Part shown: positions 55,017-61,430 of the stretch, one piece after another | Position numbering within the stretch: the stretch's first letter is position 1 | Layout of the letters: each line of letters starts with the position of its first letter | The notes under the pieces: generated by a model | Told to the model about the DNA's origin: nothing | Databases searched by the model: none | Seen by the model: the letters and a program-made list of their open reading frames with translations, nothing else | Made by a program: the position numbers and the translations under genes | DNA from: an uncultured Chloroflexia bacterium | GTDB taxonomy: Bacteria > Chloroflexota > Anaerolineae > JAAYZQ01 | Direction: 5' to 3' | NCBI GenBank assembly: GCA_963749455.1 | Contig: CAVVMX010000045.1 | Coordinates: forward strand, 39,181 to 103,180 | DNA length: 64,000 nt

Positions 55017-55304
55017 ATGAACAGACGACAGCTCATCGCCGCGGCCGCCCGGCGGTCGTCGCTGACCCAGCGGCAGGTGCGCCGGGCGCTGCAGGCCATC
55101 CTGGACACCGATCGCCGAGACCCTGGCCGACGGCCGGCCGGTCGTCCTGCCCAACTTTGGCCGCTTTGAGCCTGCAGCGCTACTCCGGGCCGGACGCTGC
55201 GGCGCTTCGGCGGAGGAGGCCACTACACCGTGCAGGACCGCTGGGTCCCGGTCTTCAGGTCGGCGGCGGCCCTGCGCCGCAGAGTGAGGGAGAAGAAGCA
55301 ATGA
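55017..55304 (+). CDS. HU/IHF-family DNA-binding protein (two frame breaks)
   Basis: MNRRQLIAAAARRSSLTQRQVRRALQAILDTI.ETLADGRPVVLPNFGRFE, then ..YTVQDRWVPVFRSAAALRRRV... Bac_DNA_binding pattern. Confidence 0.7.
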
Positions 55305-56252
55305 GACAGCAAGAGATACACTCCTGCTGGCTCGTGACTCATCCTGCTGGCCATGCCGCTGCTGGCCTGCAACCCCAACGTGCTGAACGCCTGGGGCGAC
55401 CTGCTGGGCACCGCCCGGTTCATCTGGGCCTCGATGTGGACCACGCCCGAACCGGATTATGACGCCATCGGGATCGTGTGCACCCAGGAGCTGCTGGCCG
55501 CCTACGGCGAGCCGCCGGTGGCCTACGTGGACGACATCCGCATGACCACCGAGCAGATCGCCGCCGCCTGGGGCGTCAGCCTGCCCTACTCGACCACCTT
55601 CACCGTGGGCACGCCCTTCCCCAAGCCGGACGGCTCGGGGCGGACGATGGTCCCGCTGCAGTTCGCCAACCCCGGCGGGGCCTACGGCGTGCCGGTCGGC
55701 GGGCCGGTGACCGGGCTGTGCCTGGAGTTCGAGACGGTGGACGACGGCGGCACGCCGGTCCCGCTGCTGGCCGACGGCTACCAGGTGGGCGACTGGGTGC
55801 TGCCGACCACCACGCCGGAGATTGGCTATGCCGAGTGCCCCAGCGGCATCACCCCCACGCCGACGCCGACCCCGACGCCGCTGCCCACCGACACGCCCAC
55901 GCCCGTGCCCGGCGACCCGTACGAGGACGATGATCCCCCGAACAACTCGGCCATCGCCGTGGGCGAGAGCCAGGGCCGCACCCTGGAGCCGGACGGCGAC
56001 GTGGACGTGGTCCACCTGTGGGTGTGGACCGGCCTGCACCTGGAAGTGCTGACGGCCAACCTGGGCGGCAACGCCTCGACCAACCTGGAGATCCTGACCT
56101 GCAGCGGGACCTTCTACGACACCGACGGCGGCCAGGCTCGCATTGAATGGGTCTCGGTCTGCGACGAAGTGGCCATCGTGACCGTGACTTCGGCCAACGG
56201 CTGCTACGGGTCGGGCGAGAGCTACACGCTCGCCGTCAACCAGTTGCCATGA
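55301..56252 (+). CDS. secreted lipoprotein with PT linker and C-terminal pre-peptidase (PPC)-like domain; 5' end uncertain
   Basis: ATGA overlap with the HU gene. Lipobox ..LILLAMPLLAC|NPN. TPTPTPTPTPLPTDTPTPVP linker. Then DPYEDDDPPNNSAIAVGESQGRTLEPDGDVDVVHLWVWTGLHLEV.., resembling the PPC-domain signature (YE.ND....A..L...G.I...GDVDWY). Confidence 0.5.
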
Positions 56253-56347
56253 GACGCGCCGCCAACATGTCAGCGTCGCTGCCCACGCCCCGATCTTTCC
56301 TGGAACGGGGTGGCAGGGCAGCCATCAGGCTCAGAAAGAGGTAGAAG

Positions 56348-57689
56348 ATGACCGGAATCAGCGAGTGCCACACCTGCCCGGCTTTCGGGGAGTTCTGCGA
56401 GGGGAGCGCCGAAGTGCGCCGCCGATTGCCGCGAGCTGGAAGGCTGGCTCGATCCGATCGGCGGCCTGGCCCTCGACGCTGCCCCTGGCGCCTCAGCCCT
56501 GGTTCGACCTGCCGCCCTTCTTCCCCCAGCTGCTGAACGGCCTGGAGGTACCCTCGGTGCTGGCCCGCGAGCCGGCCGTCGCGGTGGGCATCGCCAAGGC
56601 GCTGACGCCCAGGGGCAGGGTCTCCCACCGCGCCATCCCGGCCCCCTACTCCACCCGCAGCCTGCGCGCCCAGTGGGGCATCGGCCAGGACACGCGGCTG
56701 CTGTGCCTGGGCAACTACGTGGACGGCTACCTGGAGCGGCTGTGGGCGGCGCAGGCCGGCGAGAACGCCTGGGGCCACCTCCAGGCGCTGGGCTTTGACG
56801 CCGCCACCAGCCTCAACTTCTCCATCTACCTGGACCGCCCTCGCCTGGAGCACCTGGTCAACATCAAGCGCTCCTGGCTGACGGTGCGGCGGATGCAGGA
56901 GACGAGCGGCCTGGTCCCCATCCCCCACCTGCAGTGGGCCACCATCCTGGATCTCGAGCGGCAGCTCCGCTACGCCCAGGAGCAGGGCTTCCACACCCTG
57001 GCGCTCAACCTGCAGATGATCAAGCGCCAGGGCTGGGACACCGTGGCCGCCGGGCTGCCGGTCATCCGGGAGCAGGCGCCCGAGATCCGCCTGCTGTTCG
57101 CCGGCGTGGCCTCGCTGCGGCGGATGGCGCAGCTGGCGACCCTGTTCCCCACCGCCTCTTTCACCAACACCACCGCCCACTACCTGGCCCAGCGCCACGT
57201 GCGGCTGCGGCGCGACGGCATGCGCCTGATCAAGGAGCCGGTCGACGGCCACCCCGACCTGATCCTGGCCGAGAACGTCCGGCTGTACCGCGATTTCGTG
57301 GCCGAAGCAAGGGGCCAGAGCGCCGAGTCCCCAGCGCCCTCGCCGCAGGCCGGCAACCACCTGTACGCAGCTCAACAGGAGGTTGCGGCTGCTCTGCAGG
57401 CCCGCTTCGGCTACGACCCCGAGCAGGCAGCAACCGCCGCCGAACGGCTGGCCGTGGACGAGGCGATCCTGGCCGCCTGCCAGCACTGGCTGCGCACCGG
57501 CTCCCTGGACCGTGACTTCCAGGGCTCCTTCCCCGACTGGCCGTGCGCCGGCTGCGTGCCCCATCCCACCCTGGGCGACCTCCTGGACGGCGGCAGGTCT
57601 CCCGCTCGAAGCCTTCCTGCACCTGGCCGGACCTGGCCCGCCAGGTGGACGAGGAGATCCAGGCCTTCGCCGGCCTGGCCGGATATTGA
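56348..57689 (+). CDS. hypothetical protein with N-terminal Cys-rich (zinc-ribbon-like) segment (about 3 frame breaks)
   Basis: MTGISECHTCPAFGEFCEGSAE / CAADCRELEGWLDPIGG / ..QPWFDLPPFFPQLLNGLEVPSV...LLCLGNYVDGYLERLWAA..ATSLNFSIYLDRPRLEHLVNIKRSWLTVRRMQETSGLVPIPHLQW... No confident family assignment. There is a loose resemblance to DUF4417-type proteins. Confidence 0.4.
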
Positions 57690-60700: not shown

Positions 60701-60726
60701 GCTACGAGGATGGGAAGGATGCCTGA
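57702..60726 (+). CDS. large (~1000 aa) two-barrel polymerase-like protein resembling cellular RNA-dependent RNA polymerases (about 6 frame breaks)
   Basis: Stitched from ORFs 57707..59245, 59157..59657, 59366..60472, 60234..60677 and 60469..60726. Colinear blocks: GTGDCAGKMSARLAE; AGQFRLGV..GKGTLKL; DLILPDRSFKGN; LSYQALQWF; GEVLATRYPIRTRHDVQIW; GVVFMSHATAAKVGGDFDGDNFQIMP (DbDGD metal-binding signature). Confidence 0.55.
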
Positions 60727-60788
60727 CAGAACGCACCCGGCGGACCGATCCGACGCCGGAGGCGGACACACCCGCTTTCACCTTCTAC

Positions 60789-61430
60789 ATGGCCGACCTT
60801 CTTCGGCTGGAAGAGATCATGCCGGAGCCTGACCTCCGGCAGGATCTCGCCGACCGGCCAGCTCGGGTTCGTCGTGCGCGCGGCCCGGCGCATCGCCCGG
60901 CGTTACCCTGGCGTCGATCTGGACATCCTGGACCTGATCCAGGAAGGCAACCTGGCCCTGCTGCAGGCGGTCAACGAGTGGCTGGACTGCCCGCCGCGAG
61001 CTGCTCACTTCCACACCTTCATCGCCCGGCGGGTCGAGAAAGCCATCCGGCAGTGCGCGGATGGCGCCTGGCGGGAGAGCGCCAGGTCCTGCTCGCTGGA
61101 GGAGCACTGGGACGAGCTGTGCCAGGTGGAAGCGCCCGCGCGAGCTCGAACCGGAGGAGCGCCTGATCTATCGCGAAGGACAGGAGACCATGATCGCGGT
61201 GCTGGGCTCCCTGGACCGCAGGCGGAGAAAGGTGGTCGCCCTGCGCTGCGGCTTCTGCGACGGCCGGCAGAGGACATTCGAGGAGATCGGCCAGGCGATC
61301 GGCGTCAGCCGATGCGCGGGCGGGGCAGTTGATGGCGTCGGCCAAGAGGATCCTGCGCCACCCCATCCGCTCCCGCAAGCTGAGGGATGTCTGGCTGCGA
61401 TCTAGGGCTAGTGACGGGGAGGCAAAGTGA
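60789..61430 (+). CDS. sigma-70-family factor (about 3 frame breaks)
   Basis: ..VRAARRIARRYPGVDLDILDLIQEGNLALLQAVNEW...FHTFIARRVEKAIRQ (regions 2.1-2.4), ..LEPEERLIYREGQETMIAVLGSLDRRRRKVVALRCG....RTFEEIGQAIGVSR.R..Q (region 4 HTH). Confidence 0.65.

What the first reader, a model, noticed from the sequence alone, without database searches (positions are those of the whole stretch)
55017..61430. Cargo module: HU-like protein, secreted PPC lipoprotein, Cys-rich protein, RdRP-like polymerase and its own sigma factor
Five same-strand genes follow the coupling protein with tight or overlapping junctions: an ATGA overlap at 55301-55304, then gaps of only ~10-95 nt. A sigma-70-family gene sits immediately after a two-barrel-polymerase-like gene. 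That pairing suggests the island carries its own promoter-recognition and RNA-synthesis functions, or redirects the host RNAP. I do not recognise the Cys-rich 56348..57689 protein as any characterised family. The combination does not match any described conjugation, defence or phage module that I know.
Basis: inference. Interest (0 to 1): 0.7.

Follow-up and report, generated by a model that had tools for sequence, protein, structure and literature searches.

The report
Conjugation operon with RdRP-like polymerase
The five genes are real but are not cargo: four of them are the conserved tail of a DNA-transfer operon of Anaerolineae mobile elements that ends in an RNAi-type (QDE-1-like) RNA polymerase, probably used to copy the transferred single strand, and the many frameshifts seen here are most likely assembly errors.

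Summary
In this window, however, none of the five genes is an intact ORF. Each is broken by single-base frame changes. The nuo operon elsewhere in the window is broken the same way, dN/dS is 0.09-0.30 and there are no in-frame stops, so I read these as assembly errors.

Intact relatives in Anaerolineae MAGs (closest 86.6% nt identity) show one tight operon: RHH, relaxase-like protein, coupling protein, HU, lipoprotein, Cys-rich protein, ~1000-aa polymerase. So these genes are backbone, not cargo.

The polymerase is a single-chain two-barrel RNA polymerase of the QDE-1/RDR2 class, with invariant GGDFDGD and Foldseek E 3e-12. Distant homologs with the same motifs sit inside type IV secretion clusters in Acidobacteriota. 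The Cys-rich protein is a TGT/DpdA-like TIM barrel with an N-terminal Cys4 motif, and it always precedes the polymerase.

The sigma factor is optional for the polymerase. This small sigma family has regions 2 and 4 only. It was found only as polymerase-(8-nt overlap)-sigma-integrase.

Best model (inferred): a primase-like or early-transcription RNA polymerase acting on transferred ssDNA, with the sigma redirecting host RNAP. It is a new variant of a computationally known kind.

The parts
51502..51834 (-). Left edge of homology with the intact relative L001. Partial homolog of a conserved 201-aa minus-strand ORF that lies between the upstream 620-aa gene and the RHH gene in relatives.
   Evidence: blastn (51510-51859 = L001 2438-2788); tblastn (70% identity). 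GC rises from 0.62 to 0.71 at about 52000.
52087..52395 (+). Ribbon-helix-helix (CopG-like) gene, first gene of the operon. Boundaries are approximate.
   Evidence: tblastn (52114-52323); Pfam RHH_1 on the L001 ortholog, E 2.7e-6.
52393..53077 (+). Small relaxase-like protein (about 228 aa; HAHLIL His motif), broken by frame changes.
   Evidence: tblastn. Only a weak TrwC hit, E 0.094. The motif is read from the translations.
53074..55020 (+). VirD4/TraG-type coupling protein (T4CP), with about 20 frame changes.
   Evidence: Pfam T4SS-DNA_transf, TrwB_AAD_bind and TraG-D_C on orthologs. NCBIfam conju_CD1115-like, E 1e-34.
55017..55304 (+). HU/IHF-family DNA-binding protein (94-96 aa). Frames run 0>1>2>0. 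ATGA overlaps at both ends.
   Evidence: PF00216 on orthologs. NCBIfam IHF/HU hits.
55301..56252 (+). Lipoprotein (about 315 aa): signal peptide, LLAC lipobox, Pro/Thr linker and a C-terminal beta-rich domain. There is a frame change inside the signal peptide; 55353-56252 is one clean frame.
   Evidence: 89% identity to L001. No Pfam, NCBIfam or PADLOC hit.
56348..57689 (+). Cys-rich protein (about 445 aa): N-terminal invariant Cys4 (C7, C10, C17, C27) plus a TGT/DpdA-like TIM barrel. Frames run 2>0>1>2>0.
   Evidence: AlphaFold pLDDT 85. Foldseek top PDB hit is DpdA 7ui4 (E 7e-6), followed by many TGT chains. Phage 'queuine tRNA-ribosyltransferase' proteins match in BFVD. DUF4417 hit is only weak, E 0.2.
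57702..60726 (+). Single-chain two-barrel RNA polymerase of the QDE-1/RdRP class (about 1005 aa). GGDFDGDNFQ lies at about 59200-59230. At least 7 frame changes.
   Evidence: (92% identity, 100% coverage to the intact P0001).
60719..61430 (+). Short sigma-70-family protein (about 228 aa; regions 2 and 4, no Pfam region 3 hit). The start overlaps the polymerase stop (ATGCCTGA). Frames run 2>0>1>2>0.
61461..62512 (+). Tyrosine recombinase (integrase) at the right end of the element. Frames run 0>1>2. The start is approximate.
   Evidence: Pfam Phage_integrase E 6e-29. tblastn with the L170 integrase, 77% identity. Same position in L009, L169, L170 and L173.

Best explanation
Window 51.5-62.5 kb is an integrated mobile element of an Anaerolineae-type (Chloroflexota) genome. 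The finding covers the 3' half of its DNA-transfer operon, which runs RHH, relaxase-like protein, coupling protein, HU/IHF, lipoprotein, TGT-like Cys4 protein, QDE-1-like RNA polymerase. A short sigma factor and the integrase follow.

Shown:
- the gene identities and folds;
- the operon structure and its conservation;
- conservation of the polymerase active-site motifs;
- the embedding of distant polymerase homologs in type IV secretion clusters.

Inferred mechanism:
- The relaxase nicks oriT with the help of RHH and HU, and the coupling protein hands the single strand to a mating pore.
- The polymerase, together with its constant partner the Cys4/TIM-barrel protein, makes RNA on the transferred or displaced single-stranded DNA. 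This RNA would prime complementary-strand synthesis and/or express early genes without depending on host factors. QDE-1 transcribes ssDNA in a comparable way.
- The sigma is a lineage-specific add-on that most likely directs host RNA polymerase to element promoters.
- The window copy lacks the VirB4-like ATPase and the 605-aa gene that precede the operon in relatives. It may therefore be a mobilisable short form.
- The frame changes are assembly errors, so the genes are probably intact in the organism.
For: Synteny. The same order, with 4-nt overlaps, occurs in L001, L002, L004/L087, L083-86 and L089-90. The Cys-rich gene sits directly upstream of the polymerase in each of the roughly 25 close loci where sequence directly upstream of the polymerase is present.

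Polymerase.
- Invariant QFR..KG, RYPIR and GGDFDGD motifs.
- AlphaFold pLDDT 79.
- Foldseek matches: RDR2 3e-12, QDE-1 2e-11, Thermus-phage RNAPs about 1e-9, crAss gp66 3e-6.
- Homolog P0047 passes Pfam RdRP, 30.5 bits against a 23.8 cutoff.

Link to conjugation. In 14 Acidobacteriota loci the homolog is flanked by T4CP (13-14 of 14), VirB9/CagX (11), VirB6 (7) and VirB8 (7).

No PADLOC defence model matched any of these proteins other than the sigma, whose only match is to the sigma-family protein MzaA.

QDE-1 is a DNA-dependent RNA polymerase on ssDNA (PMC9508822). A primase role for bacterial RdRP-like enzymes of selfish elements was proposed earlier (PMC3417536).

Assembly errors. nuo genes are broken in the same way. 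dN/dS is 0.09-0.30 and there are 0 in-frame stops in 1559 codons. The indels are almost all 1-base insertions and they are clustered.
Against: - No biochemical data exist for any member of this family. Template, product and timing are all inferred.
- Cyanobacterial plasmid homologs are not next to T4SS genes, and P0047 sits near a pAgo-nuclease pair. The family is therefore not tied to conjugation everywhere.
- A second Anaerolineae subtype has the Cys-rich/polymerase pair without a detectable coupling protein, HU or lipoprotein upstream (L008, L091).
- A TGT/DpdA-like partner is not what a primase model predicts.
- No att repeats or tRNA target were found, and no mating-pore genes are in the window.
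- Whether the frame changes are artefacts cannot be proven without reads.
Confidence: 0.55

Rival explanations
1. One reading: polymerase and sigma together form an element-encoded transcription system. The sigma would act as the promoter-specificity factor of the single-chain two-barrel polymerase.
For: This sigma family has only about 11 clusters. It lacks region 3 and passes only the generic sigma-70 model. In every context recovered it sits directly after the polymerase gene with an 8-nt ATGCCTGA-type overlap: window, L009/L169, L170, L171 and L172. In L173 the sigma lies at the contig edge and is followed by the integrase.
Against: Most polymerase loci have no sigma. This holds for L001, L002, L085/86 and L087, and for polymerase-integrase directly in L006, L095 and L098. 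None of the 14 acidobacterial loci scanned, nor the cyanobacterial loci, gave a sigma-70 hit among the listed Pfam families. From general knowledge, sigma regions 2 and 4 dock on the beta-prime clamp helices and the beta flap of multisubunit RNAP, and characterised single-chain two-barrel RNAPs (YonO, P23-45 gp64, crAss gp66) work without sigma. No complex prediction could be run.
Confidence: 0.1
2. A DNA-modification or anti-restriction (or defence) pair. The TGT/DpdA-like enzyme would exchange bases in element DNA, as phage DpdA does. The polymerase would serve that pathway rather than priming.
For: The best structural matches of the Cys-rich protein are DpdA and TGT, plus phage 'queuine tRNA-ribosyltransferase' proteins. 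A dense set of invariant Asp, Asn, His and Gln residues suggests an enzyme. One distant polymerase homolog lies near a pAgo-nuclease pair. DUF4417-type proteins are enriched in prophages (10.1101/2025.10.10.680097).
Against: There is no sequence-level match to TGT or DpdA in Pfam, NCBIfam or the PDB. The Cys4 cluster is N-terminal, unlike the C-terminal Zn site of TGT (from memory). Generic TIM barrels score almost as well. There are no PADLOC hits. No 7-deazaguanine synthesis genes were detected among the neighbours scanned. The T4SS-embedded polymerase homologs gave no tblastn match to the Cys-rich protein in their loci.
Confidence: 0.15
3. The island is a decaying relic. Under this view the frame changes are real mutations, and all five genes are pseudogenes in this genome.
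For: More than 40 frame-disrupting indels occur in about 9 kb. The element lacks the upstream VirB4-like ATPase and 605-aa gene of its relatives. IS and recombinase fragments lie next to it.
Against: The complex I genes nuoH/L/M/N are broken in the same way. There are no in-frame stops in 1559 codons and dN/dS is 0.09-0.30. Nearly all indels are 1-base insertions, whereas bacterial decay is deletion-biased (general knowledge). The indels are clustered, with clean stretches of 1-1.3 kb between them.
Confidence: 0.1

Closest known systems
Eukaryotic cellular RdRPs (QDE-1, RDR2; Pfam PF05183)
   Same: Single-chain two-barrel fold. Metal-binding DxDGD loop (GGDFDGD). Preceding RYPIR-type and QxR...KG motifs. 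These are the top structural matches. QDE-1 also copies ssDNA into RNA (PMC9508822).
   Different: About 12% identity. The window's own family scores below the Pfam cutoff (13.2 against 23.8 bits) and connects only through P0047. It is bacterial, encoded in a transfer operon, has different N- and C-terminal domains, and has no RNAi context.
Single-chain two-barrel RNAPs of phages and prophages (YonO of SPbeta; Thermus phage P23-45/P74-26 RNAP; crAss-like gp66), and the 'RdRP-like enzymes of bacterial selfish elements' noted by Iyer and Aravind (as cited in PMC3417536; PMC2919709)
   Same: Same superfamily and the same mobile-element setting. Foldseek E is about 1e-9 to 3e-6. It matches phage family phrog_34895 at E 4e-30. 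A primase-like role was already suggested for such enzymes.
   Different: Those enzymes transcribe phage genes, or are described next to DNases or RNase H. This one follows a coupling protein in a relaxase operon, always has a TGT-like partner, and has relatives inside T4SS clusters. I found no paper describing that context.
Conjugative primases (Sog of IncI1, TraC of RP4) and single-strand-origin priming by host RNAP (ICEBs1, rolling-circle plasmids). Recalled from general knowledge.
   Same: The proposed job is the same: RNA synthesis on transferred ssDNA so that the complementary strand can be made. These primases are also encoded with the transfer genes.
   Different: The folds are unrelated (Toprim or AEP against two-barrel). 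The functional analogy is inferred only.
DpdA / tRNA-guanine transglycosylase
   Same: TIM-barrel fold. DpdA is the top PDB match and phage TGT-like proteins lead the named viral matches.
   Different: No sequence-profile match. The Cys4 motif is N-terminal. TM-scores are only about 0.4-0.5, and unrelated TIM barrels score similarly.
Sigma factors carried by mobile elements (phage sigma families such as phrog_351; MzaA)
   Same: Sigma-70 regions 2 and 4, with an RpoD-like region 4. Element-encoded.
   Different: About 225 aa with no region 3 or 1.1. It reaches no NCBIfam equivalog or subfamily cutoff. It is always translationally coupled to the polymerase gene and followed by the integrase.
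Integrative mobilisable and conjugative elements with relaxase, coupling protein and tyrosine integrase
   Same: RHH accessory protein, relaxase-like protein, VirD4-type coupling protein, integrase at the end, and a GC-distinct island.
   Different: No mating-pore genes in the window. The relaxase is only 228 aa and unclassified. att sites were not found.

Membership tests
Two-barrel RNA polymerase superfamily, QDE-1/RdRP-like branch | Metal-binding DxDGD signature in the second double-psi beta-barrel | tested here: met
   GGDFDGDNFQ is present in the window. D512, D514 and D516 are invariant in 37 sequences. Acidobacterial homologs carry GGDFD[GF]D.
Two-barrel RNA polymerase superfamily, QDE-1/RdRP-like branch | Overall fold matches solved RdRP/QDE-1 structures | tested here: met
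   Foldseek probability 1.00: RDR2 7eu1_M E 3e-12, and QDE-1 7y7s/7y7t E 2e-11 with TM about 0.4 over 860-1008 columns. Model pLDDT 79.
Two-barrel RNA polymerase superfamily, QDE-1/RdRP-like branch | Pfam PF05183 above the gathering score | tested here: not met
   P0001 scores 13.2 bits against a 23.8 cutoff. Homolog P0047 (35% identical, E 3e-92 to the query) scores 30.5 bits.
Two-barrel RNA polymerase superfamily, QDE-1/RdRP-like branch | Template-dependent RNA synthesis, and the nature of the template | not testable with these tools
   Needs an enzyme assay.
Sigma-70 family | Region 2 and region 4 domains | tested here: met
   Region 2 scores 29.7-32.6 bits (cutoff 24). Region 4 scores 26.6 bits in its own frame (cutoff 24.1). 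These lie in different frames of the window. TIGR02937 scores 48-53 bits against a 42.9 cutoff.
Known sigma groups (RpoD, RpoS, ECF, FliA, sporulation) | Score above an NCBIfam equivalog or subfamily cutoff | tested here: not met
   The best hit is RpoD C-terminal domain at 75-80 bits against cutoffs of 354-572. All specific models are far below their cutoffs.
HU/IHF (PF00216) | Full-length Bac_DNA_binding domain | tested here: inconclusive
   In the window's single frame only positions 1-31 of 90 match, at 18.7 bits against a 22.4 cutoff. The intact orthologs carry PF00216. Frame-corrected tblastn covers residues 1-94.
Conjugative or mobilisable element (T4SS-dependent) | VirD4/TraG-type coupling protein | tested here: met
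   tblastn places it at 53074-54980. Pfam and NCBIfam hits are on the orthologs.
Conjugative or mobilisable element (T4SS-dependent) | Relaxase | tested here: inconclusive
   A 228-aa protein with an HxH motif. Only a weak TrwC hit, E 0.094, and no NCBIfam hit.
Conjugative or mobilisable element (T4SS-dependent) | VirB4-type ATPase and mating-pore genes | tested here: not met
   They are present upstream in relatives (AAA_10). There is no match anywhere in the window. Contig sequence outside the window was not examined.
TGT/DpdA transglycosylases | TIM-barrel fold similar to TGT/DpdA | tested here: met
   DpdA 7ui4 E 7e-6; TGT chains with target-normalised TM about 0.5; phage TGT-like proteins match. 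Other TIM barrels score within tenfold.
TGT/DpdA transglycosylases | Sequence-profile membership (TGT Pfam or NCBIfam models, or PDB sequences) | tested here: not met
   No hit in Pfam at E<=1 except DUF4417 at 0.2. No NCBIfam hit. No PDB sequence hit.
PPC (pre-peptidase C-terminal) domain lipoprotein | Pfam PPC domain | tested here: not met
   No Pfam family at E<=1 on the intact 315-aa ortholog. The resemblance is by eye only.
Bacterial lipoprotein | Signal peptide followed by a lipobox Cys | tested here: met
   L001 ortholog: MKRRKHALLALAILVVTPLLAC. The window has ...AMPLLACNPN after one frame correction.

The most novel reading that the evidence does not exclude
The short sigma-like protein, found only fused by an 8-nt overlap to the 3' end of the polymerase gene, is the promoter- or template-specificity subunit of the single-chain QDE-1-like polymerase. 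That would be a minimal 'holoenzyme' of a kind never described. With the TGT-like Cys4 protein, it would form a self-contained transcription and priming machine that a conjugative element brings along for its transferred single strand.
Probability: 0.1. Interest if true: 0.85.

Novelty: new variant of a known kind. Interest (0 to 1): 0.55.

Why it matters
Bacterial relatives of the RNAi polymerase have been known from sequence analysis since 2003. They have mostly been attributed to phages, and one review states they were seen 'only in bacteriophages' (PMC5303251). Only phage and prophage members have been studied biochemically.

This locus and its relatives place a large family of these enzymes in a different setting. 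The family has 923 clusters at 50% identity. Here it sits inside conjugative transfer operons and type IV secretion clusters, across at least Chloroflexota and Acidobacteriota.

If the enzyme primes or transcribes transferred ssDNA, it would be a third, unrelated type of conjugative primase. It would also give a concrete biological role for the prokaryotic ancestors of eukaryotic RdRPs. The role is testable, because one homolog is in a cultured strain, Tunturiibacter psychrotolerans X4BP1. The constant TGT-like partner and the polymerase-bound sigma family are further unexplained components.

Tried and rejected
- Pfam on the ORFs as they stand in the window gave almost nothing, because the genes are fragmented. 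I switched to intact homologs.
- Sequence-profile searches of the PDB with the polymerase and Cys-rich alignments found nothing meaningful. Only structure comparison worked.
- I first suspected island-specific pseudogenisation. I rejected this after finding the same frame breaks in the nuo operon and low dN/dS.
- A search for att direct repeats and a tRNA target around 50.3-63.4 kb found nothing.
- A tblastn search of the window for the upstream VirB4-like ATPase and 605-aa genes of relatives found nothing.
- PADLOC gave no defence-system match apart from a sigma-to-MzaA similarity that reflects the shared sigma fold.
- Seven completed literature searches found no description of this operon. 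The nearest statements are in PMC3417536 and PMC2919709. The primary Iyer and Aravind J Struct Biol paper was not located in the library, so prior description there cannot be excluded.
- The genome-collection scan did not return the window's own genome. The best hit was 69% identity, so the organism is inferred only from relatives (Anaerolineae MAGs).

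
Full report
**What is in the sequence**

Window 52-62 kb is a 70-73% GC island in a ~62% GC background.
- HU starts at 55017.
- The HU stop and lipoprotein start form ATGA at 55301-55304.
- The lipoprotein ends at 56252.
- The Cys-rich gene runs 56348-57689.
- The polymerase ATG is at 57702, 12 nt later.
- The sigma gene ends at 61430.
- The sigma start is 60719 and overlaps the polymerase stop as ATGCCTGA.

None of the five genes is an intact ORF as sequenced. 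A GC3 frame plot shows the coding frame stepping repeatedly without gene boundaries. Three-frame translations let each protein be followed from frame to frame. tblastn with intact orthologs places consecutive protein segments in different frames.

A base-level alignment to the closest intact relative covers window 52125-60800 at 86.6% identity (L001). It has 82 gaps. Most are single-base insertions in the window. They are not in homopolymers. They are clustered, with clean stretches of about 1-1.3 kb between them (55339-56299, 56480-57599, 57858-59123).

**Are the frame changes biological?**

Probably not, for three reasons.
- The nuo operon at 1567-9533 is broken in the same way. One frame of nuoL (4070-4822) matches NdhF residues 84-205. 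Another frame (4279-5655) matches residues 219-445.
- Within the clean segments of the lipoprotein, Cys-rich and polymerase genes, dN/dS against L001 is 0.09-0.30. There are no in-frame stops in 1559 codons.
- Damage that consists of frameshifts only, biased to insertions and spread across the contig, fits an unpolished long-read-type assembly better than gene decay.

I therefore treat the genes as functional in the organism. This needs reads to prove.

**Related loci**

A conceptual frame-corrected polymerase (935 aa) matches intact ~1000-aa 'hypothetical proteins' of Anaerolineae MAGs at up to 92% identity and 100% coverage.

Their contigs show one conserved, translationally coupled gene order: VirB4-like AAA_10 ATPase, 55 aa, 605 aa, 53 aa, RHH, 230-aa relaxase-like protein, VirD4-type coupling protein, HU, ~317-aa lipoprotein, ~440-aa Cys-rich protein, ~1000-aa polymerase.

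In L087 host metabolic genes begin immediately after the polymerase. So the 'cargo module' is the conserved tail of the transfer operon.

The window has the operon from RHH onward. Homology starts at 51502. The upstream ATPase and 605-aa genes are absent from the window. The copy may therefore be a mobilisable short form (inference).

The Cys-rich gene directly precedes the polymerase in each of the roughly 25 close loci where sequence directly upstream of the polymerase is present. A second neighbourhood subtype (L008, L091 and others) keeps this pair but has other upstream genes, including DUF6884.

**The polymerase**

An alignment of 37 homologs has invariant QFR...KG, RYPIR and GGDFDGD motifs. 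The AlphaFold model has pLDDT 79 and pTM 0.69.

Its Foldseek matches are:
- Arabidopsis RDR2, E 3e-12;
- Neurospora QDE-1, E 2e-11;
- Thermus-phage single-chain RNAPs, E about 1e-9;
- crAss-like gp66, E 3e-6.

Multisubunit RNAPs follow only at E>0.01.

Pfam RdRP is below its cutoff for this subfamily, but it is passed by homolog P0047. A phage family of unknown function, phrog_34895, matches at E 4e-30. The family has 923 clusters at 50% identity with E<=1e-3.

**Wider context of the family**

The genome collection holds 263 relatives.
- In 14 Acidobacteriota loci the homolog (catalytic motifs retained) lies inside T4SS clusters. A coupling protein occurs in 13-14 of 14, VirB9/CagX in 11, VirB6 in 7 and VirB8 in 7.
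- Pseudanabaena plasmid homologs have no T4SS neighbours. They sit next to Rho_N proteins and large Eco57I-type methylases.
- P0047 lies on a plasmid-like contig with Replic_Relax, SSB and a pAgo-nuclease pair.

**The Cys-rich protein**

It has 141 homologs, and the named ones are all Anaerolineae MAG proteins. It has no family assignment. C7, C10, C17 and C27 are invariant, as are many Asp, Asn, His and Gln residues.

The model (pLDDT 85) is a TIM barrel. Its best PDB match is the DNA preQ0 insertase DpdA, followed by many TGT chains. The named viral matches are phage 'queuine tRNA-ribosyltransferases'.

Generic TIM barrels score nearly as well, and there is no sequence-level TGT match. I therefore call it TGT-like in fold only. 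A weak DUF4417 hit (E 0.2) points to a family that is uncharacterised and enriched in prophages (10.1101/2025.10.10.680097).

**The sigma factor**

It has regions 2 and 4 only, with an RpoD-like region 4. It passes only the generic TIGR02937 model.

Its family is tiny: about 11 clusters, after which E-values jump to ~1e-19 for primary sigmas. In all contexts recovered it lies as polymerase-(8-nt overlap)-sigma-integrase. The contexts are the window, L009/L169, L170, L171, L172 and L173. In L173 only 142 nt are available upstream.

The reverse does not hold. Many polymerase loci lack the sigma.
- Polymerase is followed directly by integrase in L006, L095 and L098.
- Polymerase is followed by other genes in L001, L002, L085 and L087.
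- No sigma-70 family was listed among the neighbours of the acidobacterial or cyanobacterial homologs.

So the sigma depends on the polymerase context, but the polymerase does not need the sigma.

**Mechanism**

Shown: fold, motifs, operon structure, conservation and the T4SS association.

Inferred: the polymerase makes RNA on the transferred or displaced single strand. This would prime complementary-strand synthesis or express early genes. QDE-1 transcribes ssDNA (PMC9508822), and a primase role was already suggested for RdRP-like enzymes of bacterial selfish elements (PMC3417536).

The Cys4/TIM-barrel partner may supply template recognition, by analogy with the zinc domains of primases. Alternatively it may modify nucleic acid. 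HU/IHF probably serves the relaxosome. The lipoprotein is a surface or pore-associated component. The sigma most likely redirects host RNAP. The alternative, that it serves the single-chain polymerase, is unprecedented but not excluded.

**Novelty**

RdRP-like polymerases in phages and unspecified 'selfish elements' are known computationally (PMC2919709, PMC3417536). I found no description of this operon, of the T4SS embedding, of the TGT-like partner or of the polymerase-linked sigma family. The primary Iyer and Aravind paper was not located in the library. I rate it a new variant of a known kind.

Noticed in passing
window 1567-9533 (+): The NADH:quinone oxidoreductase operon (nuoA, H, J, K, L, M, N) is full of frame changes. 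nuoL runs through three frames and nuoM through about six segments. Indel errors are therefore contig-wide, and any ORF-based reading of this window needs frame correction.
   Followed up: yes
window 62838-63774 (-): To the right of the island lie an IS21-type IstB ATPase gene (63292-63774) and a fragmentary second tyrosine-recombinase-like ORF (62838-63253), both on the minus strand. The island's right flank is a patchwork of mobile-element pieces.
   Followed up: no
window 49702-51186 (-): The left flank carries two host-like ORFs, each open in a single frame. By eye they look DUF2293-like (49702-50379) and DinB-like (50407-51186). They mark the left border of the GC-rich island near 51.5 kb.
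   Followed up: partly
L088 4048-12415: A distant polymerase homolog (P0047, which passes Pfam RdRP) lies on a plasmid-like contig. It sits 2.4 kb downstream of a PDDEXK nuclease plus Piwi (pAgo) pair, separated from it by two small unannotated ORFs and a PhdYeFM/PIN toxin-antitoxin pair, and has SSB downstream. This puts an RdRP-like gene and an Argonaute gene close together in a prokaryote.
   Followed up: no
L079 (Tunturiibacter psychrotolerans X4BP1 chromosome, NZ_CP132941.1 5216553-5237941) and 13 other Acidobacteriota loci: Polymerase homologs of about 870 aa (GGDFD[GF]D motif retained in the protein representatives of this group) sit inside T4SS gene clusters, next to VirB8-, VirB9- and VirD4-family genes. 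One is in a cultured strain, which makes the function experimentally accessible.
   Followed up: partly
L015, L018, L019, L032 (Pseudanabaena plasmids): Cyanobacterial homologs are flanked by small Rho_N-domain proteins and 1400-aa Eco57I/N6-methylase-type proteins, not by T4SS genes. This is a different, unexplained neighbourhood.
   Followed up: no
proteins P0326, P0351, P0354, P0355, P0363, P0364, P0369, P0387: Some proteins match only the C-terminal third of the polymerase profile (positions about 636-940). That helical/beta region therefore also exists as a separate module.
   Followed up: no
L008 7739-8569; L091: A second Anaerolineae neighbourhood type keeps the Cys-rich/polymerase pair. 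It is preceded by a DUF6884 protein (in L008) and 900-1083-aa unknown proteins instead of coupling protein, HU and lipoprotein.
   Followed up: partly
L001 12063-13668: In the closest relative, the sequence after the polymerase gene encodes a zinc-ribbon ORF and a 397-aa ORF that look to me like a transposase pair (not tested), with HTH_23/HTH_29 and DDE_3 transposase genes about 3 kb downstream. This is where the window has sigma plus integrase, so the 3' end of the element is a variable region.
   Followed up: no
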